IMG/VR virus record: IMGVR_UViG_3300042900_000713
Coordinates: 39,886 to 103,885 of that record
Direction: 5' to 3' (one strand)
Length of the DNA: 64,000 bases
Source: a virus
Lineage: Duplodnaviria > Heunggongvirae > Uroviricota > Caudoviricetes
The first letter of the stretch is position 1. Each line of letters begins with the position of its first letter. Positions 1 through 59,860 of the stretch are shown here, piece by piece. The translations under genes and the position numbers were made by a program. The notes under the pieces are model-generated. The model was not told the DNA's origin and made no database searches. It worked only from the letters and a program-made list of their open reading frames with translations.

Positions 1-34
1 TCGGAATTGTCCTGAATAGTAATTGCCATGATGA

Positions 35-166
35 TCAGATAAGGTGAGCAGGGGAACCGCAGGAACGATAGAAGTCTACCATGCGCAGAGCATCATCTAG
101 AGTGGAGAATGTTTGTGTTCTCCACTCGCAAGCATTGTACGGAGTTTGGTAACGGATTGAAAACAT
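35..166 (-). CDS. hypothetical small protein (43 aa)
   Basis: ATG at 164-166, TGA at 35-37, ATGA-overlap with next minus gene; no recognizable promoter. Confidence 0.25.
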   Translation of the reverse strand: MFSIRYQTPYNACEWRTQTFSTLDDALRMVDFYRSCGSPAHLI

Positions 167-189
167 GATCGTTTTAGAGAGTGTAAAGA

Positions 190-237
190 ATGGGGGAGGG
201 ATTCTCCCCCTTGTGCCAGTTGCTAGATTGTCACCCG
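190..237 (-). promoter_or_regulatory. cassette E1 (box + GGGGGAG hairpin; no clear -10)
   Basis: gggggagggattctccccc + ttgtgccagttgctagattgtcac. Confidence 0.5.
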
Positions 238-488
238 ATCAGGGCAGCGGCGAGACGATCGCGCTTGCGGATGTTAACAATTGACCACTGATTGCGCTTG
301 CCATTACTAGAACGGGTCGCGGTGAGAATACCATCATCTTCCATGTCTACCATTACGGCATGGATTGTACCTTTGTGACGCTTCGGATCCATACCCATAA
401 TGCGCACGAGATCGCTACATGTTTGCGGTCCCTGTTGAATGAGAACGCTGCGGACTGCGATGCGGGTCAGAGCGGAGAAGTTGAGCAT
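231..488 (-). CDS. hypothetical protein, 85 aa (possible winged-helix-like)
   Basis: Internal ATG (486-488) lies immediately after cassette E2; the 166-aa track ORF 231..731 reads through the cassette and is probably artefactual. Confidence 0.5.
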   Translation of the reverse strand: MLNFSALTRIAVRSVLIQQGPQTCSDLVRIMGMDPKRHKGTIHAVMVDMEDDGILTATRSSNGKRNQWSIVNIRKRDRLAAALIG

Positions 489-572
489 CGGTCGGTGTCG
501 GTGTTGACTCTTTAATCCTAGTCGGTCAGGAGGGGGACCCGTGAGTCCCCCGAACCAGTTGTCAGACTGTCC
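489..572 (-). promoter_or_regulatory. PeSL-like cassette E2 (subfamily A)
   Basis: ttgactctttaatcctagtcggtcagg + GGGGGA…TCCCCC hairpin + box ccagttgtcagactgtcc. Confidence 0.6.
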
Positions 573-750
573 CGGCAGCGGGGATCCGTTTCTCAACTTC
601 TCGAGAATTGCGACCGGCGCCAGTGGCAGCATAAAATCGGGTTTTTGCGCCACCGACGCGGGAGCATACGAGTTCGCTACGCTTTGGTTTCGCAGTGGGC
701 AGGATGGTGACGGTGAAAGTCTGACCGTCAATGATCTCGATGGTGTTCAT
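562..750 (-). CDS. hypothetical protein 62 aa; C-terminal ~15 aa encoded by cassette E2
   Basis: ATG after E3 leader; stop inside E2 box (…GTV*). Confidence 0.3.
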   Translation of the reverse strand: MNTIEIIDGQTFTVTILPTAKPKRSELVCSRVGGAKTRFYAATGAGRNSREVEKRIPAAGTV

Positions 751-837
751 TGGTCTCGTGTGCGGTGTTGACTCTTTAATCCTAGTCGGTCAGGAGGGGG
801 GAACCGTGTCCCCCTTGTGCCGGTTGCTAGATTGTCA
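751..837 (-). promoter_or_regulatory. PeSL-like cassette E3 (subfamily A)
   Basis: Near-identical to E4 over ~85 bp including the first codon of the downstream gene. Confidence 0.65.
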
Positions 838-1089
838 CAGCATCTCGATCAGATGCATCATCGTGGTGATCTGAACCGGGGTCTGCCAGATGATGACATC
901 TTCCAACATATTGCCATTCGGGCGCATTACACCAACCTCGAAAGTGTCGTGCTGAATGTCACCTTTGAGTCCAGAATCCTTCGGACCCGCAACTACACTA
1001 ATGGTCCAATAGTTCCGGAAAGTGTACTCTGCGCGAGTGCCACCTTTGACTACACTGTGATCGAAGAAGTTCAGATCGGAGAAGTTCAT
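835..1089 (-). CDS. hypothetical protein 84 aa
   Basis: ATG follows E4 leader; stop in E3 box. Confidence 0.5.
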   Translation of the reverse strand: MNFSDLNFFDHSVVKGGTRAEYTFRNYWTISVVAGPKDSGLKGDIQHDTFEVGVMRPNGNMLEDVIIWQTPVQITTMMHLIEML

Positions 1090-6545: not shown

Positions 6546-7058
6546 TCACCAGTTAGATTGGAAGTAATAATCGTTCTCTTCACAATAATCATGACGTAGA
6601 GAACAATTCCACGTTGCTTCATAATCTATGCACAACCAGGAAGGAATATTTTCACCACTAAACTCAAAAACTCTTTGCACTACAAAATCCTCCACACTAT
6701 TGAAATAACCTTCATAAACGTCCTCAAAATGCTTTAGATCATCTAGACTGTAGAGTGAAATAAAGGCATCCACAGCAGCAGGATCGTGATCATCCCGCAG
6801 TTCTTTATACTTTTCAAAGTATTCTAGGTCATTAATGCTATGTTCTTCGATAAAATCGTAGAGATCACTCTTTGAAGCATCTGTATTCTCAAGAACCTCA
6901 AGAATTACCTCAAGGTTCTTAGCATATTCTTCACCAAAGTAATCATAAACAGACAGAACTTCCTCAAGATCCCGACCATCTTCCACAAGATTGTCGATGA
7001 TCTCAACAATCTCAGAAGGAAGAGTTTCCTTATAGTTGGCGGTGAGAGTGATAGACAT
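6546..7058 (-). CDS. acidic protein ~170 aa
   Basis: Internal ATG (MSITLT) after E17; intrinsic terminator downstream at 6512-6538. Confidence 0.55.
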   Translation of the reverse strand: MSITLTANYKETLPSEIVEIIDNLVEDGRDLEEVLSVYDYFGEEYAKNLEVILEVLENTDASKSDLYDFIEEHSINDLEYFEKYKELRDDHDPAAVDAFISLYSLDDLKHFEDVYEGYFNSVEDFVVQRVFEFSGENIPSWLCIDYEATWNCSLRHDYCEENDYYFQSNW

Positions 7059-7166
7059 TGAAGTTGGTTGGTAGTGTGGTCGGTTGGTTGCCCTTCCGAT
7101 GCACTTACTATACGGCATCAGAAGGGCGGTCTTATGGGATTTTAGACCAGTTTGCGAGGTGTCACA
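7059..7166 (-). promoter_or_regulatory. cassette E17 (box + -10 TATAGT)
   Basis: ccagtttgcgaggtgtcac box; GATGCcgtatagtaagtGCATC. Confidence 0.5.
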
Positions 7167-7362
7167 TTGCCAGAATAAGATTTGCGACACGCTCTTCTCC
7201 AGGAAGTTCCTCCAAACGATTTGAAACCTCCTCAAACTGTTGCATGATGTTTAGATAATATGCAGAGAGATGTGGATTCTCTTCATATACAGACTGTTCC
7301 TTATCACACAATACACTTATAATGTCTAGAAGTTCACCAGATGTCAGGGAGATGGAAGTCAT
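7162..7362 (-). CDS. hypothetical protein 66 aa
   Basis: ATG after E18 (TTGACA in hairpin loop, -10 TATATT). Confidence 0.5.
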   Translation of the reverse strand: MTSISLTSGELLDIISVLCDKEQSVYEENPHLSAYYLNIMQQFEEVSNRLEELPGEERVANLILAM

Positions 7363-7456
7363 GAGATTTCAGTGGTGTGTAACAAATGTAATATAAGGGT
7401 TCTATGGGGGATCTGTCAACCCCCAGAACCATTAGCAATCCTTATGTGTCAGACAC
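7363..7456 (-). promoter_or_regulatory. cassette E18 (hairpin GGGGGttgacagaTCCCCC with TTGACA in loop; -10 TATATT)
   Basis: TTGACA-18-TATATT on the minus strand. Confidence 0.55.
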
Positions 7457-7610
7457 CAAAATCCTCTACATATGACTCTACACTCTCAGCAGGTTCTAGG
7501 TCAAATACTTTCTCAAAATCAATATCCTTGGCATTAAAATCTGAAAATACATTAAACTCCAAGGTTACACGAACCTTTTTCTTTTGTGCTTGAAGAAATG
7601 CAACTGACAT
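7449..7610 (-). CDS. hypothetical protein ~53 aa
   Basis: Internal ATG (MSVAFL) preceded by TTGACA-17-TATAGT. Confidence 0.45.
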   Translation of the reverse strand: MSVAFLQAQKKKVRVTLEFNVFSDFNAKDIDFEKVFDLEPAESVESYVEDFGV

Positions 7611-7631
7611 AAGAACTCCGTGTGGTTGATC

Positions 7632-7670
7632 TGAAGGTACTATACGATGATATGAGAGGTTTGTCAAGGG
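7632..7670 (-). promoter_or_regulatory. sigma70-like promoter TTGACA-17-TATAGT (minus strand)
   Basis: Minus strand CCCTTGACAAACCTCTCATATCATCGTATAGTACC; drives 7449..7610. Confidence 0.55.
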
Positions 7671-7768
7671 TGTTGAGAGTATGTATGTGAGTCTCATGAG
7701 AAATGTGAGTCTTATGAGGTTTTATGTGTATTTTTATGTCCGGGGTCTGGGAAAAATATCGGGCCTGC

Positions 7769-7797
7769 TTGACAAAAATGCCCTCGTGTGATATAAT
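7769..7797 (+). promoter_or_regulatory. perfect consensus sigma70 promoter TTGACA-17-TATAAT (plus strand)
   Basis: ttgacaaaaatgccctcgtgtgatataat; faces the iteron arrays and the HNH gene. Confidence 0.6.
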
Positions 7798-7877
7798 TAC
7801 TTCCAAGATCACAAGGATCTGAAGGGTATAAGTTACATAAGTTACATAATAATCTGATGAATCTGATGTATTTTAAG

Positions 7878-8033
7878 AACATAAGAACCATAATATACAC
7901 ATAAGATTACATAAGAACCATAAGACTACATAAGAACCATAAGATTACATAAGAACCATAAGACTACATAAGAACCATAAGATTACATAAGAACCATAAG
8001 ACTACATAAGAACCATAAGATTACATAAGAATA
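7878..8033. repeat. tandem 19-bp direct repeats TACATAAGAACCATAAGAY (~7.5 copies, 38-bp higher-order unit)
   Basis: Six perfect alternating GAC/GAT copies 7908-8021 plus degenerate flanking copies. Confidence 0.85.
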
Positions 8034-8098
8034 AAGTTTTCCACAAGTATAAAGAGTTTTCCACAAGTATAAAGAGTTTTCCACAGGTTTTCCACAAC
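8034..8098. repeat. tandem 20-bp repeats AGTTTTCCACAAGTATAAAG (2.5 copies; TTTTCCACA x4)
   Basis: Immediately upstream of the HNH gene. Confidence 0.8.
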
Positions 8099-8162
8099 TA
8101 CAGATTGTCTCCATTTACTACCCTACTTTCACCTATATACAAAAAAGTATGAGAAAATCAAT

Positions 8163-8714
8163 ATGTTTCAGAAGGTCACAAAGAAGATCTCTGATATTGA
8201 AGGTATGGAAAACTATAAGTTCTATTATGTTACCACCGATGGAGAGATCTATTCAACCAAATATAAGAAACCAAGAAGATTAAAGGAACAATGGTCTAAT
8301 GGTAATCAATCTTATAGAGTAGTTCAACTCTCTAATGGCAAGGGTAATCACAGATCCTTTTATATTCATCGTATTGTTGTAGAAGCATGGTTACCAAATC
8401 CAACAGACTCATGGGGTATTCAACATATTGACGGAAATGTTGAAAATAATGCTCTATCCAACCTAAGATGGATTGGTAGAAAAAAGGAAAGAGATGGTCT
8501 AATAGGTTTAGATACTGATCAATTAGAATTAAGTAAAGATCTAAGTGATTATATTCGTTTAGTACACGATGCTGCAATTAGAAAAAACATTCCTGTTCCT
8601 GATACATATGAGTTCTTTCATAAAATCTTAAATGAATCATTGAATGAGTACATCAATCGTTATGGTCTCAAGAAGACAATGTACTTGTTAGAGAATTCAA
8701 AAGAAACAATCTAA
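8163..8714 (+). CDS. HNH homing endonuclease (NUMOD4 + HNH_3 family)
   Basis: YKFYYVTTDGEIYS (NUMOD4-like) and IHRIVVEAWL…HIDGN…NLRW motifs; only convincing plus-strand gene. Confidence 0.8.
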   Translation: MFQKVTKKISDIEGMENYKFYYVTTDGEIYSTKYKKPRRLKEQWSNGNQSYRVVQLSNGKGNHRSFYIHRIVVEAWLPNPTDSWGIQHIDGNVENNALSNLRWIGRKKERDGLIGLDTDQLELSKDLSDYIRLVHDAAIRKNIPVPDTYEFFHKILNESLNEYINRYGLKKTMYLLENSKETI

Positions 8715-9101
8715 CGTAACTTGAGAAGGTGTTCCATCAAACTTATAATGATACGTAAGAGCATCTGCTTTTACATAATGATCATGATTTACTGATACAC
8801 CAAGAAGATCACACAGTTCCTTATGATTATCTTCTTGATATTCAATTGCATATAACATATGATTCAGAACATGCTCTTCTGAATGATACAAACATAAAAG
8901 TTCCTTAAGACGCACAATGAAATTACCGGAACCAGCACACAGATCTAAAAACTTGAAATTTGGATTCTTGAGTGTTTCTACTGGTATTTCTGCTAACATC
9001 TCATTGACCAATACTGATGGAGTAAAGACTTCACCAGTATTATCAATTCGGTCTTGAGTTCTTTCAAGACTTGAACCTACATTCTTAACCTTTTTTGACA
9101 T
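8697..9101 (-). CDS. DNA methyltransferase, SAM-binding half (motifs X and I)
   Basis: EVFTPSVLV (motif X) and LDLCAGSGNF (FxGxG); overlaps upstream ORF by 17 nt in another frame. Confidence 0.6.
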   Translation of the reverse strand: MSKKVKNVGSSLERTQDRIDNTGEVFTPSVLVNEMLAEIPVETLKNPNFKFLDLCAGSGNFIVRLKELLCLYHSEEHVLNHMLYAIEYQEDNHKELCDLLGVSVNHDHYVKADALTYHYKFDGTPSQVTLDCFF

Positions 9102-9924
9102 AATACGGATTTGGTATAACTTTTAACATATCACAAACTGTACGGAATCCTCCACTAATTTGACATGCCCTACGATAATTATCTGCCTCACTTGAATTCA
9201 AATATTCAATAATATCATCTGCTTCTTCTTTTGAATCCACTAAAATGTACATACAATTATCAGACACACCATATTGCCCGTCATCATAATACGGATAGAA
9301 GTTTCCACCTTCACGGAACACAACCTTTTTCTTTGTTGCTTCTGGTTCTTCTGTCTTATTATAGCATAGATTCAGTTCTCCTGATGCGGTAGTCTTGTTG
9401 ATACTCACAAATGCACCATCAAAGGCAATCATTGGATCATAAGTCTTTGAACGGCAAATGTGTCGCCATGCTCTTCCAATTTGTGGGTTCAGACGAGGAA
9501 TTGAGGAATCAGTATTCAGGTATTTCTGAAGTAAGTCGAGACTATGATTGGGAATAAAGGGATAGTCACGTAAATCAACATCAGTCCAGTCTTCAGATTC
9601 TTCAAAACGCACCTGTGTCGGTCCTGTACGGGGTGTCTTGTGAAGAACGTACCAGTCATAAGGTGTTCCTGCCTTAAAGGTCTTTTTACCCTCTACGGCG
9701 GAGTGAATGGAGAGTTTCTTTACCTGATTGTCAATTAGTAGATGGCGATGTGGATTATTTGGTTTTCTTAGACCAGGTGGATGTACGGAAATCATCAGAC
9801 CATTATCTTTTGTCAGTTCATATTGAATCTGAGCAAAATCCCCATAGGTACTGCTGCCCGTATTATGAGAATCCAAAGAATATGGTGGATTGGATATTGT
9901 TACATCAAATTGAATTGCGGTCAT
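9085..9924 (-). CDS. DNA methyltransferase, catalytic/TRD half (NPPY motif IV)
   Basis: ISNPPYSLDS near the N-terminus; with 8697..9101 forms a beta-class motif order (IV-TRD-X-I). Confidence 0.55.
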   Translation of the reverse strand: MTAIQFDVTISNPPYSLDSHNTGSSTYGDFAQIQYELTKDNGLMISVHPPGLRKPNNPHRHLLIDNQVKKLSIHSAVEGKKTFKAGTPYDWYVLHKTPRTGPTQVRFEESEDWTDVDLRDYPFIPNHSLDLLQKYLNTDSSIPRLNPQIGRAWRHICRSKTYDPMIAFDGAFVSINKTTASGELNLCYNKTEEPEATKKKVVFREGGNFYPYYDDGQYGVSDNCMYILVDSKEEADDIIEYLNSSEADNYRRACQISGGFRTVCDMLKVIPNPYYVKKG

Positions 9925-11746: not shown

Positions 11747-11828
11747 GTGTGGTGTTCTTGATACCTCTGTATTATAGGGGCACACAGGAGCATGTGGAGT
11801 GGTGTGTGTGCCAGTTTGAGAAGTGGAT
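11747..11828 (-). promoter_or_regulatory. cassette E21 (box + TATAAT)
   Basis: gtgccagtttgagaagtggatc box; CCCCTATAATACAGAGG. Confidence 0.55.
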
Positions 11829-13258
11829 CAGAAAAGTTTACCGTGTGGTGCAAAAATGTCACTTAATTTACGATTCTTCTTTAATGAAATGTAGAGCATG
11901 TCAGTCCAAAATTCTTTTTGATCTTTTTGCTCCAAAGATTCTGATAAAAACTCAAGTTGCATCAATTTACTGATTGCAATGTTTTTATTTTTAGTTTCAT
12001 CTGAGTTGAATAAATCTTCAATGTATTGAGAAAATTCCTTTCTATTTTTAATATCTGTCTTTACTCTTTTACGCTTTATCTTTACAAATAAAGTTTCATA
12101 TTTTTTTTGCACTCCTTGCTTTTTAAATTCCTCTAATGTATTTGGATATTTGCTATAGTTATTTTCAAATTTTTTATCTAATAAAGTTTCAACCAAATCA
12201 ACTGGAGCCTTTCCTCCTCTTCCACCTGAATCTTTGATATTACTCTCAAATTTTAAATTTGATATTTTTTTATCTGATCCAGAGTTACTTTTAATTTGTA
12301 TTTTATTTTTATCCAGAGTTACTTGAGATTGCTCTACATATTCTTTTGTACCCTTCTGGTACATATTATATTCTATTTCTATTTTATCTACATTATACTC
12401 ATCATCCATATCTTCACTATTTAAGAGAAAATCTTTCATATTTACATAAACAAATCTTGCTTGATTAGCAGTAACCTTTTTAAGAGAAACTCCAATTAAA
12501 TATTCTTTTTTTATTAAATTTCTAAGAATATCATTTAATTCTGATAATGTTTGTGTTTTGGGTTTTCCTTGGATTGATTGTGATAAGATATCTTTAATTT
12601 CAGATTTTTTATCTTTACGAACAATCCATATGTCACTTGGATTCCAAGTTTCATATCTACCAGAATATACCTTCTTCAAACAGATTTTAATAAATTTAGT
12701 AAAATTATCCCCACTCTCTTTATATTCAATTTTTTCCCATTCTTTACCTTTAAATCTTTCTGTTATTTTTTTATTTTGCTTTAGATAAGATTCAAACCAT
12801 TCTGTTGGAATATGATTATTATTAAATATCTTTTTTAATTCAAGATATTCTGGATCATTTTTAACATCTTTAAGTGATTCAAAAGTTACGTTACCAATTA
12901 GTGATCTGTTGAAAATCCAAACAGATCCATCTTCTTGAGTTTTGGTAGTGAGTATTGGTGATTGTTTAGTAATAAACTTTATATCAATTTTTTGGGTTAC
13001 TATTTTACCAGATTTTTTTTCTTTATAGAGAATGGTGATAATTTTATTACTCTTATTTGCATAATTTAAAGTTGCTGTTGGATCTATTTTTTTCAAAGTT
13101 GCTGGCAATTTAATTAATTTTACAACATCAGAATAAGAACTATCAAACCTAGATTTTGATAGTTCTATATCAATTTCTCCATATTTAATTGAAATATCTA
13201 CGTTTACATCTGTATAAACCTTATCTTCTAATAAAGTCAATATTTCTTTTTCTTTCAT
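11828..13258 (-). CDS. Lys-rich 476-aa protein of unknown function on an AT-rich island
   Basis: Long ORF; GC content far below neighbours; stop in E21 box. Confidence 0.6.
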   Translation of the reverse strand: MKEKEILTLLEDKVYTDVNVDISIKYGEIDIELSKSRFDSSYSDVVKLIKLPATLKKIDPTATLNYANKSNKIITILYKEKKSGKIVTQKIDIKFITKQSPILTTKTQEDGSVWIFNRSLIGNVTFESLKDVKNDPEYLELKKIFNNNHIPTEWFESYLKQNKKITERFKGKEWEKIEYKESGDNFTKFIKICLKKVYSGRYETWNPSDIWIVRKDKKSEIKDILSQSIQGKPKTQTLSELNDILRNLIKKEYLIGVSLKKVTANQARFVYVNMKDFLLNSEDMDDEYNVDKIEIEYNMYQKGTKEYVEQSQVTLDKNKIQIKSNSGSDKKISNLKFESNIKDSGGRGGKAPVDLVETLLDKKFENNYSKYPNTLEEFKKQGVQKKYETLFVKIKRKRVKTDIKNRKEFSQYIEDLFNSDETKNKNIAISKLMQLEFLSESLEQKDQKEFWTDMLYISLKKNRKLSDIFAPHGKLF

Positions 13259-42290: not shown

Positions 42291-43088
42291 TTATGACATT
42301 CGTATTCTTTTAGAAGTATCTATACCTCTTTTGTTTTGATACCGGGTAAGTGGTCCTGATGTTGATACATATCCAGTTTCAAGGCACATCCATTTTTGTG
42401 AGTTTGTTATTTTACTACCTATTTTACCACCTATTTTACCATTTTCAATTGTTTGTTCTGCAGTTAATCCAAAAATTCCTACACCAAGTTCTTTTGTTTT
42501 TTTACCACCCTTTTTATTATATTTTTTACCATTTTCCATTCTTTGTTCTGGGGTAAATCCGCATATTCCTATACCAAGTTCCTTTGCTTTTTTACCAGCT
42601 TTTTTACCATCTTCCGTCATTTGTTCTTTTGTTCTTCCACAAATCCCTGTTTTATTTTCCTTATGTTTTTGTCCTGATATTTTCCCACCTTTTTTACCAT
42701 CTTTGGTCATTTGTTCTTTTGTTCTTCCGTGAACTCCTATACCAAGTTCTTTTGTTTTTTTACCAGTTATTTTACCTGAATTTCTACAAATTTCTAAAGA
42801 AACCTTACCACCACAATTTTTATTAAGACACCATTTATCAGTATTATAAAATGATTTAATCAATCTTGTTTCAACTTCTTGTGCTTTAATCCATCCTTCA
42901 TCTGTATAAGAAAAGACTTCAAGTATTTGTTTCTTTGCTGTATAAAAATTCCAGCACCACTTATGAGTATATGGGGAACCCCAGTATTCCTCACCAAACT
43001 TCGTTTCCTTATGAACTCCATAGTAATAGTAAGGAACTTCCTCAAAAGTAATTTTGTATATGTAAATTCTTGGACTTTGTGAAGTCAT
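42291..43088 (-). CDS. GIY-YIG-like homing endonuclease with expanded NUMOD3-like repeat array (copy 2)
   Basis: RIYIYKITFEEVPYYYYGVH; six or more KELGIGxxGxTxEQ modules; ~75% identical to copy 1 over the N-terminal 100 aa. Confidence 0.7.
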   Translation of the reverse strand: MTSQSPRIYIYKITFEEVPYYYYGVHKETKFGEEYWGSPYTHKWCWNFYTAKKQILEVFSYTDEGWIKAQEVETRLIKSFYNTDKWCLNKNCGGKVSLEICRNSGKITGKKTKELGIGVHGRTKEQMTKDGKKGGKISGQKHKENKTGICGRTKEQMTEDGKKAGKKAKELGIGICGFTPEQRMENGKKYNKKGGKKTKELGVGIFGLTAEQTIENGKIGGKIGSKITNSQKWMCLETGYVSTSGPLTRYQNKRGIDTSKRIRMS

Positions 43089-45166: not shown

Positions 45167-45580
45167 TCATCTATTTTTATTTAATCTTTCTACATGCTTT
45201 TTATTTAATCTTTCTACATGCTTTTTATGTCCCTCTTCATCTCTATAAATGTGTCTACCGGGAACTGTTAGGTTATATCCAAGTCTATCTTTTCCACCAT
45301 GCCATTTATCTTTTCTTAAAAATTTATCAGCATTTTGTTTAGCAAAAGTCCTTTTACCTTTTTCAGTTTTCTTTTCTTTAAATCCCTTTGATTTTTGTTG
45401 AGGTCCAATAACCTTAATTGCAGTTATCATATTACTAAATCTACTATCAGAGTCCCTTTCACCACGCTCTCTTTTAGCTTTATCTCTTGCAAGATGTCTC
45501 TTCATTTGAGATTGCATTTTAGGTTCATTCATTGGCTTAAATGCTTCAGCAATCATCATAAACTCCTGAAAGGTTTTCAT
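45167..45580 (-). CDS. basic protein 137 aa with tandem KKHVERLNK repeat
   Basis: TATAAATA ~30 nt upstream; 27-bp tandem duplication at the 3' end. Confidence 0.55.
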   Translation of the reverse strand: MKTFQEFMMIAEAFKPMNEPKMQSQMKRHLARDKAKRERGERDSDSRFSNMITAIKVIGPQQKSKGFKEKKTEKGKRTFAKQNADKFLRKDKWHGGKDRLGYNLTVPGRHIYRDEEGHKKHVERLNKKHVERLNKNR

Positions 45581-55798: not shown

Positions 55799-57041
55799 AG
55801 ATCTCTACAGGTCCTGGGTATCTTGGTCCATCTTTAAGAGCAACTAGGTGAGTATTGACTACAGCAATCTTGGTTCCCTCCCACCAACTAGTTTCTAGTC
55901 TCATAGATGAAAACCTTATATCAGTATTACGAATGAACACTGCTTTGTTTTTATTTGTATAATATGGGAAACTATCTTCATTCCAAAAAGATATATGAGT
56001 TGGATCACACCAAGCACCATTACCTTCTGTAGATGGGACTTCAATAAATGCCCACCCTCCAGGTGCTAGAACACGATGTATCTCCCTCATAGTTTTAATA
56101 GGATCTCTTAAGTGCTCAATCACATGAGAAGCATTGAGTACTCCAACACTATTATCTTCTAAAGGAATACCATCGTTTAAATTGCAAGTAATATCTCCAT
56201 CTTCTTGATCTATAGTGGTATATCCTTCTTTAGGGAATAAACCGCCACCCATATCAATTTTTAATAGTCCTTTATCATCAGCATCCTTTTCCGCAAGTCG
56301 TTGTGCATACTGATTATGGAGTTCTTTAGTTTTAATTTGAATTGCTTCATTTCTTTCTAGGAAACTATTATCTCCAGTAATTCTGTAAATATAAAGAACT
56401 TTAGGAATATGATAAAAATTAGTTTCAAGATAAGTTTTTATCATCAATTCATGGTCATCACATATAGAAAGTTCTACATTATGCCCACCAATTTGATGAT
56501 AAACATCCCTTTTCCATGCTCTTACATGATCTGGAGCATACCAAATATAAGAAAGTGAGTGACTAGATGGTTCAAAAGAATTCATCGCAATCAGTTTCTT
56601 ACCATTCCAGTCATAATTCGTATAAGTCCAACCAAATACGGGACCATAGGGAACAAACTTATCTTCCATATGATAAGTTGCATTATTACTATAAACAAAA
56701 CCACACTCTGGATTATTTTCAAATGCTATTTCAAGTTCGTTTAAGCAATCTGGAGTAAGAATGTCGTCATGGTCAACTTCAACAAGAACATCTCCAGTTC
56801 CTAATGAGAATGCTTTATTTTTTACATATCCGATGTTAGTATTGTTTTCTTTGTCTTCGAAGATTTTTACTTTGCTATCTTTTGTGATTTTTTGCGAAAG
56901 TTGATTTTTAGTTAAAGATCCATTTAAATAAAGAATCCATTCCCAGTCATCGTGAGTTTGTTTTGTGATGCTCTCATAGAGTTCATCAAGATAAGAATGT
57001 TGTTTATGTGAAGGCGTAATAATACTAAATTTCATTTTCAA
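55797..57041 (-). CDS. bifunctional glycosyltransferase family 2 / class I SAM-methyltransferase
   Basis: N-terminus FSIITPSHK…, VEVDHDD (DxD); C-terminus LEDNSVGVLNASHVIEHLRDP…VLAPGGWAFIEV (Methyltransf_11-like). Confidence 0.7.
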   Translation of the reverse strand: MKMKFSIITPSHKQHSYLDELYESITKQTHDDWEWILYLNGSLTKNQLSQKITKDSKVKIFEDKENNTNIGYVKNKAFSLGTGDVLVEVDHDDILTPDCLNELEIAFENNPECGFVYSNNATYHMEDKFVPYGPVFGWTYTNYDWNGKKLIAMNSFEPSSHSLSYIWYAPDHVRAWKRDVYHQIGGHNVELSICDDHELMIKTYLETNFYHIPKVLYIYRITGDNSFLERNEAIQIKTKELHNQYAQRLAEKDADDKGLLKIDMGGGLFPKEGYTTIDQEDGDITCNLNDGIPLEDNSVGVLNASHVIEHLRDPIKTMREIHRVLAPGGWAFIEVPSTEGNGAWCDPTHISFWNEDSFPYYTNKNKAVFIRNTDIRFSSMRLETSWWEGTKIAVVNTHLVALKDGPRYPGPVEI

Positions 57042-59860
57042 TCAAAGAAGAATAAGTGAAATAATCTTGAGTTAGTTAGGTCTGTTCCAAAGTATTCATT
57101 TGCAGAGTGAATACATTTTGCATCAAAAAGAACCAGACGATTAAAAACATTGCCAGCGGTGTCTACAAGTTGAAATTTGGTCTTATCATAATAACCACCT
57201 TCAAAAACATTAGTATCTTTAAAATCATTTTCATTTCTTAATTTTGTATCTTTATGAGCATACAAAGAAGTCCCACAAGAGAATGGTGCATCAGGAGTTA
57301 GATATACCATACCGGCAAGTGTTTGTCCATCGCAGTGATACACTAGAGAATCTTCTGCTGTGCAATACTGAAATCTACCACACATTCCGTGAGTTTCAGT
57401 CCAGTTTGTAATCTTTTTCCCTATAATTTTCTCAAATGCTTCCTTCGTTCCTGGGGCAATATACTGTTGATTTGAACGACTGCCTTTATAGTAATTAAGA
57501 TTTGGTTCAAATTCTTGTTGAAGAGCAAATTCTCTTACAGCATATGGGTCAGCATAAAAATCATCTACAATCCAAAGTCTCGGTTTGGTTGTTGTATTAA
57601 TAGTGAATGAGTTAATAGTTTTTTCTTCACTGACCTTTAACAGAGCATAGTTATGAAGATTTTGTGGGCAATCCCCACTATCTTGATAGATGTTGGTATC
57701 AATTAAGAAGTAATAATCTGGAAATGGAAGTTTTCTTTCCGGATCTACGAGTCTTGTTGTTTGCTCCAGCATCTTATCATACTGCTTTAGTTCATCATAA
57801 GTTTGAGCAAGATATACAATGTGCTCATTTCTTACTGGGCAGTATTTTTCTGCTTTATGAAACCATTCTATTGCTTTCTCATAATTTCCAAGATACTTAT
57901 ACCCAAGACCAATAGAGAATGTAGAGAAATAAGACATCTCGTGAATACCTTGTGCATTTACGTGCTTTAGATATTCTTCAAAGTAGAAAATAAATCTGCG
58001 GGCAAACTCTTTTGAGTGTGCTTCTTTTAAGGGATAAAAATTTCCTCCATAACAATCTTGATAAGATTTTGCAATATACCAGAAGTGATAAGTATCCGTG
58101 AGCATTGTTTCTTCACGAATCATTTTTTCTTCAAGTTTAAGTGCATCAGTAATATACTTAGTTCTTATAGTATAACTTTCCCCATCACTGGTTCCCGACA
58201 TTCTTAAACCGCGAGGAAGATTTAATCTCTCAAAGTTCTCTCCTTTATCATTATCCAGATAAATGATTTCGTGAGCGAGATCGTGTTGAAATCTCCAGGG
58301 TAGTTTTGCATTCCAAATCCAGGCACGATAGTAGATACAACCAGGATTAACTGCAGTTACATGAAAACTTTCAGTATTAGTATTATAGAAATAAGACCAA
58401 TCAAAATCTTCGTCTACTTCTAGATATTCATCACAATCCATTTTCATGATCCAATCACACCCGTGGTCATTACGAAGTGTGGTTTGAAGTAAATGGTCTC
58501 GGTTCCAACCAAAACCAACCCAACCTTCCTCAATATTATAAATGAAACCAGGAATGTTCTTATCTGCAAAAAACTCTTTTACAATATCTGGTGTTCCGTC
58601 AGTGGAACCATTATCTTGAAATACATAAAAATCAATATGTCTCCAGACACTCTCAAGCATTCTACGAATACCCTTCGCTTCATTCTTAAACATAGAAATC
58701 ATACAGATATTTGTACGGATTTCTTGCCCAGACTTGTGTGCCCGAAGAAAGTTATAGTATCCTAGATACTCGTTGAGCATTAGAACTGAACCTTGTTTCG
58801 ATGCTTCTTCCGCATAAATTCCGTCTGCTTCGTAAATATGAGCAAAACGAAGGTTCTTTGCAACACTCCAACGAACCATGTATTGTGAAGTATCAATCTG
58901 TGCAATTTTAGGAGTGTCTGTGGGTGCAGTGCGAGGTTCATCATTTGCCCAGACCTGACCCCAAGTAATGATTGAAGCATCACTGTTGAGGTGTGATTGA
59001 ATATTGCTCCACCAATTTGGATGAATTATATTATCATCATCTAAAATATAAACCCAATCATTATCACTTGGATTTAACTGATTCTTAATATATTCTAGAC
59101 CAATATTGCGATTTGGATTTCCCCAGAACCCAGTCTCTTGTGAATGAATAACAGTAGCATTTTCTACTGTGTGCTCATTCTTTACAGTATCATCAAATAC
59201 TACAACCCATTCACATTCTCTCGGAACTGAACCTACAATAAACTCAAGATTAAAAGGTCTACGAGAAGGAGTGACGATGAATACTTTTGAGTTCAATTCA
59301 ACCTCGGTCTTCTCATAAACCCAACAAGTTTCTTGTGTGGTAATTTTATTTCCAAGAACTTCTTGAACTGCCTTTTCAACTCCAGGAAAATCGACATTAA
59401 GATAATCGTGCCCAGCAATTACGCCCCCTTGCTTTACTTTTGGGAGCCAAGAAATTATATCGTCTTTTACATCTTGGTATTCGTGTGAAGCATCAATAAA
59501 AACAAAGTCTAATGAGTTGTCTTCAAATTGCTTGACTCCTTGTAGTGATTTTGCACGAATACCTTTATAATACTTTCTTACTGGTTCCATATTATTCAGG
59601 AAAGTATCGTAAAGATTAGAAGTGTCCATTTCATATTGTTCGTGTTCAACACTTCCTTCCCACGTATCCACACAGTATAAATCAATATCTTTTCCCGAGT
59701 TTGCAATTTCTACCGCCATATAAGCAGAAGACATTCCTTTCCAAGAACCAATCTCTACAAATTTACTTCCAGATGAAAATCTTTTCACCATAGAACTATA
59801 AAGTTCTGGATAATTAAACCAGACTTCACCGAATTGCGATTGGTTGTAAATGTGGTTCAT
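57038..59860 (-). CDS. 940-aa multidomain enzyme: N-terminal SAM-methyltransferase, two GT-A glycosyltransferase modules, TPR-like segment, C-terminal 2OG-Fe(II) oxygenase-like domain
   Basis: FVEIGSWKGMSSAYMA (MTase), YILDDDN (DxD), FQDNGSTDGT (GT2), YHCDG…NRLVLFDAKCIHSA (oxygenase-like). Confidence 0.7.
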   Translation of the reverse strand: MNHIYNQSQFGEVWFNYPELYSSMVKRFSSGSKFVEIGSWKGMSSAYMAVEIANSGKDIDLYCVDTWEGSVEHEQYEMDTSNLYDTFLNNMEPVRKYYKGIRAKSLQGVKQFEDNSLDFVFIDASHEYQDVKDDIISWLPKVKQGGVIAGHDYLNVDFPGVEKAVQEVLGNKITTQETCWVYEKTEVELNSKVFIVTPSRRPFNLEFIVGSVPRECEWVVVFDDTVKNEHTVENATVIHSQETGFWGNPNRNIGLEYIKNQLNPSDNDWVYILDDDNIIHPNWWSNIQSHLNSDASIITWGQVWANDEPRTAPTDTPKIAQIDTSQYMVRWSVAKNLRFAHIYEADGIYAEEASKQGSVLMLNEYLGYYNFLRAHKSGQEIRTNICMISMFKNEAKGIRRMLESVWRHIDFYVFQDNGSTDGTPDIVKEFFADKNIPGFIYNIEEGWVGFGWNRDHLLQTTLRNDHGCDWIMKMDCDEYLEVDEDFDWSYFYNTNTESFHVTAVNPGCIYYRAWIWNAKLPWRFQHDLAHEIIYLDNDKGENFERLNLPRGLRMSGTSDGESYTIRTKYITDALKLEEKMIREETMLTDTYHFWYIAKSYQDCYGGNFYPLKEAHSKEFARRFIFYFEEYLKHVNAQGIHEMSYFSTFSIGLGYKYLGNYEKAIEWFHKAEKYCPVRNEHIVYLAQTYDELKQYDKMLEQTTRLVDPERKLPFPDYYFLIDTNIYQDSGDCPQNLHNYALLKVSEEKTINSFTINTTTKPRLWIVDDFYADPYAVREFALQQEFEPNLNYYKGSRSNQQYIAPGTKEAFEKIIGKKITNWTETHGMCGRFQYCTAEDSLVYHCDGQTLAGMVYLTPDAPFSCGTSLYAHKDTKLRNENDFKDTNVFEGGYYDKTKFQLVDTAGNVFNRLVLFDAKCIHSANEYFGTDLTNSRLFHLFFFD

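What the first reader, a model, noticed from the sequence alone, without database searches (positions are those of the whole stretch)
7620..8720. Plus-strand island: consensus sigma70 promoter, 19-bp and 20-bp iteron arrays, and an HNH homing endonuclease opposing the minus-strand genome
A textbook TTGACA-17-TATAAT promoter at 7769-7797 points into ~7.5 tandem copies of TACATAAGAACCATAAGAY and 2.5 copies of AGTTTTCCACAAGTATAAAG. These are followed by the only credible plus-strand gene, a NUMOD4/HNH_3 endonuclease whose 3' end converges on the methyltransferase genes. Iteron arrays next to a strong promoter could be a replication origin, a partition-like site, or a regulatory titration site. 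The endonuclease orientation is typical of an inserted mobile element.
Basis: seen in the sequence. Interest (0 to 1): 0.65.

Follow-up and report, generated by a model that had tools for sequence, protein, structure and literature searches.

The report
Cyanophage promoter, host DnaA boxes, endonuclease
The "iterons" are four textbook binding sites for the cyanobacterial replication initiator DnaA, set downstream of a conserved backward-facing early promoter in a non-coding module shared by many T4-like cyanophages; this is probably a replication origin or a host-sensing switch, and the HNH gene is a mobile endonuclease that has landed in a favoured slot beside it.

Summary
There is a perfect TTGACA-17-TATAAT at 7769-7797, the only one in 64 kb. 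There is a 19-bp array at 7900-8031, a 20-bp array at 8035-8096 and an I-HmuI-like HNH gene at 8163-8714.

The key correction is that the core of the 20-mer, TTTTCCACA, is the cyanobacterial DnaA-box consensus. Four direct copies are spaced 20, 20 and 11 bp apart, as in cyanobacterial oriC.

The promoter is conserved in 43 non-redundant uncultured relatives and in the cultured phages S-SM2 and Bellamy. So is an invariant AAGATCACAAG just after it. S-PM2 and Syn1 have an analogous promoter-plus-box module.

Phased DnaA boxes follow the promoter in about a quarter of relatives retrieved without reference to them. Syn1 has a single cluster in 191 kb.

The 19-bp array is a young, lineage-specific amplification. 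The closest relative has the dimer only once.

The slot after the boxes is a hotspot for homing endonucleases. Seven loci carry an HNH gene and eight a GIY-YIG gene, all co-directional with the promoter. These genes replace a conserved AT-rich motif (0/15 against 19/28, p=1e-5).

The transcript is unstructured and matches no Rfam family.

Best reading, at about 0.4 confidence: a transcription-activated, DnaA-assisted phage origin, like T4 oriE/oriF with an oriC-type box array. The main rival is a DnaA-gated transcription unit. Nothing comparable turned up in the searchable literature.

The parts
7449..7611 (-). First gene of the leftward early operon that diverges from the module. It is a small acidic protein (MSVAFLQAQKKKVRVTLE...) of PHROG family 12516, function unknown.
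   Evidence: The PHROG match covers residues 30-82 of ORF 7449-7697, so the start is Met30 at 7611. Homologues sit in the same position in all related loci.
7639..7667 (-). Leftward sigma-70-type promoter P- (TTGACA-17-TATAGT) for the diverging early operon.
   Evidence: It matches 11 of 12 consensus positions. The two -35 boxes form an inverted pair, TTTGTCAAG / CTTGACAAA, 99 nt apart (I16).
7685..7718 (.). Two 16-nt boxes, ATGTGAGTCTCATGAG and ATGTGAGTCTTATGAG, between the divergent promoters. The first contains the palindrome TCTCATGAGA. The second contains TCTTATG, the reverse complement of the CATAAGA unit of the array.
   Evidence: D7, I1, I7-I11, I17-I19. L271 has about 12 TCTTATG copies in the same region. 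Other lineages carry 6-7 copies of the palindrome TCTCGWCGAGA here and nowhere else in 20 kb.
7769..7797 (+). Rightward early promoter P+, a perfect TTGACA-17-TATAAT with a TG extended -10. It is antisense to the surrounding genes.
   Evidence: The -35 box, spacing, TGTG and TAnnnT are conserved in 43 non-redundant relatives while the spacer sequence varies.
7806..7820 (+). Initial transcribed element AGATCACAAGGATCT. It is an inverted repeat (AGATC / GATCT) carrying two GATC sites. AAGATCACAAG is nearly invariant in relatives.
   Evidence: Alignment A2. No RNA consensus structure was found, so the conservation is at sequence level, as for an operator or protein-binding site.
7828..7868 (+). 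Two short perfect tandem repeats: ATAAGTTAC x2.4 and AATCTGATG x2.
7874..8031 (+). The 19-bp array (38-bp true unit) TACATAAGAACCATAAGAY, about 7 copies, giving 15 CATAAGA units at 9-10 bp spacing. It is a young, lineage-specific amplification and the least stable non-coding DNA tract in the window.
   Evidence: The array is absent in L271, where the dimer occurs once. The 28-nt array probe found nothing in IMG/VR. The 200 bp from 7827 rank 4th least stable in 64 kb, and the three lower ones lie inside one AT-rich ORF.
8037..8096 (+). Four direct consensus cyanobacterial DnaA boxes TTTTCCACA at 8037, 8057, 8077 and 8088, spaced 20, 20 and 11 bp.
   Evidence: The consensus is given in PMC4674748. 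The identical doublet lies in cyanobacterial dnaN/dnaA-dnaN oriC regions. Boxes occupy the same place in relatives and in S-SM2. S-PM2 and Syn1 carry them in an analogous module.
8163..8714 (+). Free-standing HNH homing endonuclease gene (I-HmuI-like catalytic domain plus a conserved C-terminal domain). It is co-directional with P+, and no terminator-like site was found between them.
   Evidence: Nine in-slot homologues share 31-88% identity with invariant H69, H88, N96 and N100. The gene is present or absent among relatives, and its presence excludes the AT-rich motif. No + strand terminator lies between 7800 and 8163.
8697..9101 (-). Convergent gene that bounds the module on the right. It encodes a 134-aa fragment carrying the N-terminal AdoMet-binding motifs of an N6 DNA methyltransferase.
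   Evidence: Pfam N6_Mtase, E=2.8e-4. It overlaps the HNH stop by 18 nt.

Best explanation
Window 7620-8160 is this phage's copy of a conserved non-coding control module of T4-like cyanophages (Kyanoviridae-type). It lies between two leftward early transcription units.

**Shown.** A leftward promoter (P-) starts the next early operon. A strong rightward promoter (P+), read by the host's principal sigma factor, fires antisense to all neighbouring genes. Its transcript is non-coding and unstructured. It crosses a conserved +5..+20 element and then a lineage-specific repeat tract. It then reaches a helically phased array of four consensus host DnaA boxes.

**Inferred mechanism.**
- The module is an early, transcription-activated replication origin of the T4 oriE/oriF type. 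Host RNA polymerase transcribes from P+ into the easily melted tract. In this phage that tract is the 73% A+T, 19-bp array. In relatives it is a conserved AT-rich motif.
- Host DnaA sits head-to-tail on the phased boxes, as at oriC. It helps to open the DNA and/or stalls the polymerase. The transcript then stays annealed as an R-loop and primes leading-strand synthesis by the phage replisome.
- The 19-bp array is not a classical iteron set. It is a recent slippage amplification of a dimer of a 7-nt motif (CATAAGA / TCTTATG). That motif also decorates the early promoters of this lineage and probably binds an unidentified regulator.
- The HNH gene is a site-specific homing endonuclease. It has replaced the AT-rich element of the empty allele and is expressed by read-through from P+.
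For: 1. **The boxes match the host consensus.** TTTTCCACA is the cyanobacterial DnaA-box consensus (PMC4674748). Four exact copies lie within 60 bp, against 1.7 expected in the whole window.
2. **The spacing is phased.** Adjacent boxes are 20, 20 and 11 bp apart here. In relatives retrieved without reference to the boxes the spacings are 11, 12, 21 (x4) and 22 (x2). All but one exact box are in the orientation of P+. A degenerate inverted box often lies 13 bp after the last one.
3. **The same doublet occurs in host origins.** The 21-nt doublet lies in box clusters beside dnaN, or between dnaA and dnaN, in cyanobacteria.
4. **The cluster is unique in a complete genome.** Syn1 has one cluster in 191 kb, at a position syntenic with the window: helicase, then small early genes, then the module, then further small genes; in Syn1 gp25/gp6 follow, a stretch that would lie beyond the window's left end.
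5. **P+ is under selection without any gene downstream.** The -35 box, 17-18 bp spacing, extended -10 and TAnnnT are conserved in 43 non-redundant loci, and 28 of them have no gene downstream.
6. **The layout fits an unwinding element.** An AT-rich motif flanks the boxes in endonuclease-free relatives and in S-PM2. In the window the tract between promoter and boxes is the least stable non-coding 200 bp of the 64 kb.
7. **The RNA is unstructured.** It folds worse than shuffled controls (z = +1.6), shows no consensus structure and matches no Rfam family. That fits a hybridising or primer RNA better than a folded one.
8. **There is precedent in the same phage superfamily.** T4 oriF and oriG are a promoter plus an AT-rich DUE with an R-loop primer. 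T4 oriE is an early promoter plus evenly spaced direct repeats, and its primer RNA is antisense to the local gene (PMC3016281; T4 annotation).
Against: - There are no replication data of any kind.
- The boxes are optional. Only 8 of 34 non-redundant relatives retrieved without reference to them carry boxes. Box-less relatives have ATTGAnnnTCAAT palindromes in the same slot. L231 has an HNH gene but a decayed promoter and no boxes.
- The conserved AT-rich motif is absent from the window and from every endonuclease-bearing allele, so it is dispensable.
- In S-ShM2 two boxes lie between a promoter and a gene start, which looks regulatory.
- The non-template strand is A-rich, not G-rich, which does not especially favour R-loops.
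- GC skew gives no signal in Syn1.
- No DnaA-trio pattern is evident by eye after the boxes.
- T4-like phages encode their own replisome and are not known to need DnaA (own knowledge).
Confidence: 0.4

Rival explanations
1. DnaA-gated transcription unit, a host-state sensor. The boxes act on transcription rather than replication. DnaA bound downstream of P+ blocks or attenuates the strong antisense transcript. This limits read-through into the toxic endonuclease gene or into the 3' end of the convergent operon, and it couples that read-through to the host's DnaA level or cell-cycle state.
For: - All but one exact box lie on the non-template strand downstream of P+ in one orientation.
- The same slot holds other protein-site-like palindromes in box-less relatives, as if different roadblock proteins were interchangeable.
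- In S-ShM2 boxes lie between a promoter and a gene start.
- In the window no terminator-like site separates P+ from the HNH gene. In all 15 endonuclease loci the gene is co-directional with P+.
- DnaA-box complexes blocking RNA polymerase, and DnaA acting downstream of lambda pR, are established in E. coli (own knowledge).
Against: - Most relatives have nothing downstream of P+ to regulate.
- The uniqueness of the cluster in Syn1 and its oriC-like phasing are not required for a roadblock.
- The idea is not exclusive of the origin model, because a stalled polymerase favours an R-loop.
Confidence: 0.25
2. DnaA sink or interference site, like datA or the T5 injection-stop region. The array titrates or inactivates host DnaA as the phage genome multiplies, or tethers phage DNA to membrane-bound DnaA. 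Either way it interferes with host replication initiation.
For: - The array is a consensus, phased cluster like those of chromosomal DnaA-binding loci.
- T5-like phages carry 8 oriC-like DnaA boxes within a repeat- and palindrome-rich untranslated region, for which DnaA tethering has been proposed (bioRxiv 10.1101/866236).
Against: - There are only 2-4 boxes per genome.
- The boxes are absent in most relatives.
- The model does not explain the tight, oriented association with a conserved promoter.
- T4-like cyanophages degrade host DNA anyway (own knowledge).
Confidence: 0.1
3. The product matters, not the DNA. P+ makes an early non-coding RNA. It could be an antisense RNA against the end of the convergent operon, or a sponge whose repeated CAUAAGA and UUUUCCACA motifs bind a protein or an RNA.
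For: - A conserved strong promoter has no ORF downstream in 28 of 43 relatives.
- The first 20 nt of the transcript are conserved.
- Tandem repeats recur in the transcribed leader in several lineages, for example 13 nt x8 in L417 and 36 nt x3 in L360.
Against: - No Rfam match, no consensus structure, and folding worse than shuffled sequence.
- Beyond +40 the sequence is not conserved.
- An exact match to the host DNA-binding consensus, with helical phasing, points to the DNA level.
Confidence: 0.1
4. The 19-bp array, taken alone, is a neutral product of replication slippage (a VNTR) with no function of its own. A plasmid-type iteron origin with its own Rep protein, or a partition site, is the reading this would replace.
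For: - The copies are nearly identical, with a strict 38-bp alternation, the signature of recent duplication.
- The array is absent from the closest relative and from IMG/VR.
- Other lineages show different expansions at the same place.
- None of the neighbouring genes scanned matched a Rep- or Par-type family.
Against: - The amplified unit is a motif that is also enriched at the early promoters of this lineage.
- The array forms the least stable non-coding tract directly before the DnaA boxes, so the amplification may have been co-opted.
Confidence: 0.1

Closest known systems
Bacteriophage T4 oriE (and oriF/oriG)
   Same: - The phage belongs to the same superfamily.
- The host-type promoter has a transcript that is antisense to the local genes.
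- Evenly spaced short direct repeats (oriE) or an AT-rich unwinding element (oriF/G) lie downstream.
- A free-standing homing endonuclease gene, segC, lies about 1 kb from oriE.

Sources: PMC3016281; T4 annotation.
   Different: - T4 origins have no DnaA boxes.
- oriE lies inside gene 5, not in an intergenic module.
- There is no sequence similarity.
- Origin activity here is untested.
Cyanobacterial oriC (DnaA-box cluster beside dnaN)
   Same: - The 9-mer TTTTCCACA is identical.
- The head-to-tail doublet with 11-bp spacing is identical.
- Further boxes lie at one or two helical turns.
   Different: - There are only 2-4 boxes, nearly all in one orientation.
- There is no dnaA or dnaN.
- The array is embedded in a phage promoter module.
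- No DnaA-trio is evident.
T5-like phage injection-stop (iss) region
   Same: It is a large untranslated region of a lytic phage, full of repeats and palindromes, with an oriC-like set of DnaA boxes of unproven function (bioRxiv 10.1101/866236).
   Different: - T5 has 8 boxes in a terminal repeat tied to two-step injection.
- This is a T4-like phage, with no evidence of terminal repeats or two-step injection.
- Here the boxes are tied to a promoter.
Lambda pR / ori-lambda and P1 oriR (own knowledge)
   Same: Host DnaA boxes are combined with transcription (lambda: DnaA acts downstream of pR to activate the origin) or with 19-bp iterons (P1 oriR).
   Different: - Those systems have a cognate phage initiator gene (O, RepA) whose product binds the iterons.
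- None was found among the neighbouring genes scanned here.
- The 19-mers here are not conserved.
PeSL cassettes of T4-type hyperplastic regions
   Same: Both are small non-coding cassettes with strong sigma-70-like early promoters, set in the region of small non-essential early genes (PMC2839356).
   Different: - PeSLs are many per genome, co-directional with the genes and paired with terminator stem-loops.
- P+ is the window's only perfect-consensus promoter and points against the surrounding genes; the DnaA-box cluster beside such a promoter is single in Syn1's 191 kb.
- P+ is followed by DnaA boxes.
Free-standing homing endonucleases of T4-like phages (Seg, Mob; I-HmuI fold)
   Same: - It has an HNH catalytic core like I-HmuI.
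- It is intergenic.
- It is present or absent at one locus.
- Unrelated endonuclease families share the slot.
   Different: - No NUMOD4 domain was detected.
- The C-terminal domain is family-specific.
- The target site is inferred, not shown.

Membership tests
DnaA-box cluster (oriC/datA-type DnaA-binding array) | 9-mers matching the host's DnaA-box consensus | tested here: met
   There are four exact TTTTCCACA. This is the cyanobacterial consensus (PMC4674748). The host is inferred to be a cyanobacterium from the closest cultured phages and a Kyanoviridae Pfam family.
DnaA-box cluster (oriC/datA-type DnaA-binding array) | Several boxes clustered with helical phasing | tested here: met
   The spacings are 20, 20 and 11 bp. 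In relatives they are 11-12 or 21-22 bp. Cyanobacterial oriC clusters show 11- and ~21-22-bp spacings among others.
DnaA-box cluster (oriC/datA-type DnaA-binding array) | Binding by host DnaA | not testable with these tools
   This needs EMSA, footprinting or ChIP with Synechococcus DnaA.
Bacterial-type origin unwinding module (boxes + DnaA-trios + AT-rich DUE) | AT-rich unwinding element adjacent to the boxes | tested here: inconclusive
   The window has a low-stability tract just upstream of the boxes (99.6th percentile). It lacks the conserved AT-rich motif that flanks the boxes in relatives.
Bacterial-type origin unwinding module (boxes + DnaA-trios + AT-rich DUE) | DnaA-trio repeats next to the proximal box | not tested
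   Inspected only by eye after the last box in the window and L005. No obvious trinucleotide periodicity was seen, and no formal test was run.
T4-type R-loop origin (oriF/oriG/oriE) | Host-polymerase promoter firing into the origin | tested here: met
   There is a perfect consensus promoter, and its elements are conserved in 43 relatives. Activity itself was not measured.
T4-type R-loop origin (oriF/oriG/oriE) | Persistent R-loop, or an RNA primer used by the phage replisome | not testable with these tools
   This needs DRIP or S1 mapping and replication assays.
T4-type R-loop origin (oriF/oriG/oriE) | Early replication peak, or autonomous plasmid replication on infection | not testable with these tools
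   No read data were available. GC skew in Syn1 is uninformative.
Iteron origin with cognate initiator (P1 oriR, lambda ori, R6K gamma) | Rep/initiator gene adjacent to the iterons | tested here: not met
   The neighbours are the HNH gene, methyltransferase genes, a small acidic protein and an anti-restriction-like protein. No Rep-like family was matched.
Iteron origin with cognate initiator (P1 oriR, lambda ori, R6K gamma) | Iteron array conserved among close relatives | tested here: not met
   The 19-mer array is absent in L271, whose HNH protein is 86% identical, and in IMG/VR.
Partition site (parS / centromere-like repeats) | Adjacent ParA/ParB-type genes | tested here: not met
   No such family was matched in the neighbouring ORFs that were scanned. 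The phage is of a lytic T4-like type.
Free-standing HNH homing endonuclease | HNH catalytic motif | tested here: met
   It matches HNH_3 and I-HmuI. H69, H88, N96 and N100 are invariant in nine homologues.
Free-standing HNH homing endonuclease | Presence/absence polymorphism at a fixed site, with an intact empty allele | tested here: met
   15 of 43 loci are occupied (7 HNH, 8 GIY-YIG). The AT-rich motif is found in 0 of 15 occupied and 19 of 28 empty loci, p=1e-5.
   No NUMOD family was found at E<0.01. A conserved C-terminal domain of unknown type is present.
Free-standing HNH homing endonuclease | Cleavage of the endonuclease-free allele | not testable with these tools
   This needs an in vitro cleavage assay or a co-infection experiment.
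Structured non-coding RNA | Conserved secondary structure or a known family | tested here: not met
   No Rfam match. RNAalifold predicted 0 pairs. The fold z-score is +1.6.

The most novel reading that the evidence does not exclude
T4-like cyanophages have borrowed the host initiator. A conserved antisense early promoter plus an oriC-style DnaA-box array forms a DnaA-dependent phage origin. Phage DNA replication is thereby coupled to the host's DnaA activity, and through it to light and cell-cycle state. The same module serves as the preferred landing pad for homing endonucleases of two unrelated superfamilies.
Probability: 0.3. Interest if true: 0.75.

Novelty: new variant of a known kind. 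Interest (0 to 1): 0.6.

Why it matters
Where and how cyanomyoviruses start DNA replication is not known. These are among the most abundant viruses in the ocean. T4-like phages are generally regarded as independent of the host initiator.

This module is compact and sequence-defined. It carries host DnaA boxes and is present in culturable phages (S-SM2, Syn1, S-PM2). That makes the question directly testable. If DnaA is involved, it would link phage replication or early transcription to the physiological state of the host.

The locus is also a clean natural example of a single non-coding slot invaded repeatedly by HNH and GIY-YIG endonucleases, with a recognisable empty-site allele. That is useful for studying intron-less homing.

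For annotation, the small ORFs called across this region in S-SM2 and Syn1 are probably spurious.

Tried and rejected
- **Structured RNA.** Rfam at the gathering threshold on the whole window, and at permissive E-values on the module and on Syn1, S-PM2, S-ShM2 and L271, found nothing. The only hits were microRNA-model matches in the repeat/palindrome-rich tract upstream of the promoter in S-PM2 and Syn1. RNAalifold and single-sequence folding were negative.
- **tRNA or tmRNA.** None found.
- **Close DNA relatives among cultured phages.** Only the methyltransferase fragment matched, in P-SSM2, P-SSM5 and S-CAM7.
- **Exact 19-mer array in IMG/VR.** No hit.
- **Metagenome scan with a 16-mer.** It did yield the informative relative L271.
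- **GC and AT skew in Syn1.** The skew is dominated by transcription direction and shows no inflection at the module.
- **Fur box in box-less relatives.** Only L376/L377 give a striking match (2 mismatches). The others are no better than shuffled sequence.
- **Pho box.** The CTTA cores repeat at 9-10 bp, not the 11 bp of CTTA-N7-CTTA (consensus from PMC3037559; read from the sequence).
- **NtcA site (GTA-N8-TAC) and the RpaB HLR1 motif.** Checked by eye on GTTACATAAGTTACATAA. The spacing is wrong (own knowledge of the motifs).
- **Partition site or plasmid-type iteron origin.** No Par or Rep family was matched in the neighbouring genes scanned.
- **Literature.** Eight full-text searches, most of them combining cyanophage or other phage terms with DnaA or origin terms, found no description of this feature. 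One of them was wasted on "macrophage" matches. Subscription-journal genome papers could not be searched.
Full report
**1. Observation**

- The promoter TTGACA-N17-TATAAT lies at 7769-7797 (+). It is the only perfect match in the 64 kb, where 0.10 is expected, and it has a TG extended -10.
- Tandem Repeats Finder reports a 19-bp array at 7900-8031 with 6.9 copies. It also reports a 20-bp array at 8035-8085 with 2.5 perfect copies, and an overlapping 11-bp doublet at 8076-8096.
- The + strand ORF 8163-8714 is an HNH endonuclease. It matches Pfam HNH_3 (E=7e-6), PHROG HNH families (E=2e-22) and I-HmuI, PDB 1U3E (E=3e-9). NUMOD4 was not detected.
- The other + strand ORFs tested have no family match. 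Those inspected in detail (24.0-26.3 kb) lie opposite small minus-strand genes.
- The ORF converges on, and overlaps by 18 nt, a minus-strand methyltransferase-fragment gene.

**2. What kind of genome this is**

Almost all genes are on the minus strand, and most are small.
- The window encodes an RnlA-type RNA ligase, a helicase and several DNA methyltransferases. It also encodes a protein of the Pfam family "Kyanoviridae Gp96".
- The closest cultured phages are Synechococcus phages B3 and B23, whose RNA ligase is 59% identical.
- The window is therefore the early-gene, hyperplastic region of a T4-like cyanophage.
- In Syn1 the analogous module lies between a helicase gene and the gp25/gp6 baseplate genes, among small early genes. 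The window shows the part of that order it contains: helicase, small early genes, module, more small genes.

**3. The 20-mers are host DnaA boxes**

The core of the 20-mer, TTTTCCACA, fits TTWTNCACA. It is the "species-specific" DnaA-box consensus of cyanobacteria (PMC4674748).
- The window has four direct copies at 8037, 8057, 8077 and 8088. The whole window holds 6 against 1.7 +/- 1.3 expected.
- In cyanobacteria it sits in clusters of 3-10 boxes. Their spacings include 11 and about 21-22 bp, among others.
- Those clusters lie directly upstream of dnaN (L118) or between dnaA and dnaN (L170), the canonical oriC location.
- The phage array therefore copies both the word and the spacing of host oriC.

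**4. The module is conserved well beyond this genome**

*Loci found through the box doublet.* Searching IMG/VR with the doublet found homologous modules in L005, L023, L083, L086, L093, L095 and L106.

*Loci found without reference to the boxes.* I retrieved loci through the small diverging gene 7449-7611 (PHROG 12516).
- This gave 52 loci with enough upstream DNA.
- Pooled with the nine loci found earlier and de-duplicated, these gave 43 non-redundant modules with a recognisable promoter.

*Shared skeleton*:
- a G-rich, TTTT(A/G)TG-containing upstream region;
- TTGACA, then 17-18 bp ending in TGTGn, then TAnnnT;
- the nearly invariant AAGATCACAAG(A/G)(C/T)CT at about +5 to +20;
- ACATTTAWAAG-type units that are often tandemly repeated;
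- then, variably, DnaA boxes;
- then a conserved AT-rich motif (TTTTTAATACATTTTTAATT and variants);
- then the terminator hairpin of a convergent gene.

*DnaA boxes in the box-independent set.*
- Exact boxes follow the promoter in 16 of the 52 loci, which is 8 of 34 non-redundant loci.
- All but one exact box are in the orientation of P+.
- The local spacings are 11, 12, 21 (x4) and 22 (x2).
- A one-mismatch inverted box often lies 13 bp after the last direct box.

*Cultured phages.*
- S-SM2 has the full module with two boxes. Bellamy has the promoter but no boxes. P-TIM68 and S-B05 lack the module.
- A more distant version occurs in Syn1 and S-PM2. It reads TTGACA-N17-TAAGAC/TAAGCC, then about 50 nt that include AT-rich sequence, then 2-3 boxes.
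- A BLAST of the box array hit 105 phage records, and 87 of them are cyanophages (Synechococcus phage, Cyanophage and Prochlorococcus phage records). In most listed rows the match lies in unannotated DNA.
- Syn1 has exactly one cluster in its 191 kb, antisense to the local genes.

**5. The 19-mer array is young**

- The copies are nearly identical and alternate T and C at position 19, so the array grew by duplicating a 38-bp unit.
- Each 19-mer is two CATAAGA units.
- L271 is the closest relative found. Its HNH protein is 86% identical and its DNA about 81-85%.
- L271 has the same motif 21 times, in both orientations, spread over about 600 bp around both promoters. It has the 16-nt dimer only once, and three DnaA boxes.
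- The 28-nt array probe is absent from IMG/VR.
- The same 7-mer is enriched at intergenic sites across 1.8-7.7 kb, some of them beside minus-strand -35 boxes.
- Other lineages carry different dispersed motifs at the same place. TCTCGWCGAGA occurs 6-7 times there and nowhere else in 20 kb.
- Other lineages also show different tandem expansions in the transcribed leader.
- The array is thus an amplified binding-site-like motif, not a conserved iteron set.
- It is nevertheless 73.5% A+T. The 200 bp from 7827 are the fourth least stable in the window. The three lower stretches all lie inside one AT-rich ORF.

**6. The slot after the boxes is a homing-endonuclease hotspot**

- Of the 43 non-redundant loci, 7 carry an HNH_3 gene of one family. 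Nine such in-slot proteins, two of them from loci outside this set, are 31-88% identical to the window protein, with invariant catalytic residues.
- Another 8 loci carry GIY-YIG (Seg-like) genes of two types.
- All 15 are on the strand of P+.
- The AT-rich motif (up to 4 mismatches) is found in 0 of the 15 occupied loci, anywhere within 1.7 kb. It is found in 19 of the 28 empty loci. Fisher p = 1e-5.
- The endonuclease genes therefore replace the motif. The motif marks the empty allele and is the likely homing target.
- The window lacks the motif.
- L231/L232 have the HNH gene but a decayed promoter and no boxes.

**7. The RNA**

- No terminator-like site separates P+ from the HNH gene.
- The 359-nt leader folds worse than shuffled sequences (z = +1.6). 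98 of 100 shuffles fold at least as well.
- The conserved 5' element has no consensus structure.
- Rfam gives nothing.

**8. Mechanism**

*Shown.* A conserved antisense early promoter reads through a lineage-specific repeat tract into a phased array of consensus host DnaA boxes. The site is unique in the one complete genome examined. A mobile endonuclease gene occupies the adjacent slot.

*Inferred.* I favour an origin function, at about 0.4 confidence. The reasons are as follows.
- T4 oriF and oriG are a promoter plus an AT-rich DUE with an R-loop primer.
- T4 oriE is an early promoter plus evenly spaced direct repeats, and its primer RNA is antisense to gene 5 (PMC3016281; T4 annotation).
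- The module here adds an oriC-type DnaA array in the orientation and phasing seen at host origins.

*Weaknesses.*
- The boxes are optional among relatives.
- The AT-rich motif is dispensable.
- S-ShM2 shows a regulatory-looking arrangement.
- There are no replication data.

*Rivals.*
- The strongest rival, at about 0.25, is that DnaA acts as a roadblock on P+ transcription. That would gate read-through into the endonuclease gene or the convergent operon. The two ideas are compatible, because a stalled polymerase would promote an R-loop.
- A DnaA sink, or a T5 iss-like tether (bioRxiv 10.1101/866236), is less likely.
- An RNA-level function is also less likely.

**9. Novelty**

- DnaA boxes in phage control regions are known from lambda and P1 (own knowledge) and from T5.
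- Promoter-driven origins are known from T4.
- I found no description of DnaA-box arrays or of this module in cyanophages in the searchable literature. The comparative cyanomyovirus analysis I read looked for Pho and NtcA sites only (PMC3037559).
- Subscription-journal genome papers could not be checked.
- I file this as a new variant of a known kind.

Noticed in passing
window 8697-9101 (-) and 9085-9924 (-): An N6 DNA methyltransferase appears split into two overlapping ORFs in permuted order. The upstream 279-aa ORF starts at the NPPY catalytic motif and carries the target-recognition part. The downstream 134-aa ORF carries the FTP...DLCAGSGNF AdoMet-binding motifs. It could be a beta-class enzyme broken by a frameshift, or a two-subunit enzyme. 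Only the 134-aa part has DNA-level relatives, in P-SSM2, P-SSM5 and S-CAM7.
   Followed up: partly
L357, L360, L380, L386, L417, L418, L426, L430 (IMG/VR relatives), 130-320 nt after the conserved promoter: GIY-YIG (Seg-like) homing endonuclease genes of two types occupy exactly the slot that the HNH gene occupies in the window. They always lie on the promoter's strand.
   Followed up: yes
L359, L360, L362, L365, L378, L384, L387, L392, L425, L426 (relatives without DnaA boxes): One or two palindromes of the form ATTGAnnnTCAAT (or, in L359 and L426, the related TTGATA...TATCAA) sit where other relatives have DnaA boxes. L376/L377 instead have GATAATAAGAATCATTATC, two mismatches from the Fur-box consensus. 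The slot seems to accept binding sites for different proteins.
   Followed up: partly
L228 (Syn1) about 2570-2600; L230 (S-PM2) about 2570-2595; also L081, L094: A conserved element, CACTAGGGAGTRYCYYTRCGGA, lies 30-50 nt after the DnaA boxes in classical Kyanoviridae. A long palindromic or repeated tract (aatcttaag..., ttttgagattt...) lies upstream of their promoter. Neither is explained. The small ORFs annotated across these regions (Syn1_073/074, SSM2_085-087) are probably spurious.
   Followed up: no
window 6546-7235 (-): The C-terminal half matches a PHROG family annotated as anti-restriction protein (E=3e-12). Early anti-restriction and methyltransferase genes thus flank the module.
   Followed up: no
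window 11828-13258 (-): A 476-aa ORF with very low G+C (about 25% across 12-13 kb) and no family match. It contains the three least stable 200-bp stretches of the window and a 34-bp tandem repeat at 12252-12324.
   Followed up: no
window 42408-42776, inside ORF 42291-43088 (-): Overlapping 90-bp and 12-bp tandem repeats (77-95% matches) lie inside a 265-aa ORF with no family match, so the protein is internally repetitive.
   Followed up: no
window 45174-45228: A perfect 24-bp tandem repeat (TTTTTATTTAATCTTTCTACATGC x2.3) lies at the 3' end of ORF 45167-45580 (-).
   Followed up: no
window 1-1000: G+C is 52% here against 32-42% in most of the rest of the window. The stretch carries ORF 231-731 (-), which has no family match, and a strong minus-strand terminator at 210-192. 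It may be the edge of the structural (baseplate) module.
   Followed up: no
window 8721-8749 (+): A second near-consensus promoter-like site (TTGAGA-17-TATAAT, 11 of 12) lies directly after the HNH stop codon and points antisense into the methyltransferase fragment. It may be chance.
   Followed up: no
window 57038-59860 (-): A 940-aa protein combines PHROG matches to a DNA methyltransferase (N-terminus), a glycosyltransferase (middle) and a minor coat protein (C-terminus). This is an unusual fusion.
   Followed up: no
window 7806-7820 and related loci: The nearly invariant start of the P+ transcript contains GATC (two copies in the window), and the phage encodes several DNA methyltransferases nearby. 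Methylation-sensitive control of this promoter is conceivable but was not examined.
   Followed up: no
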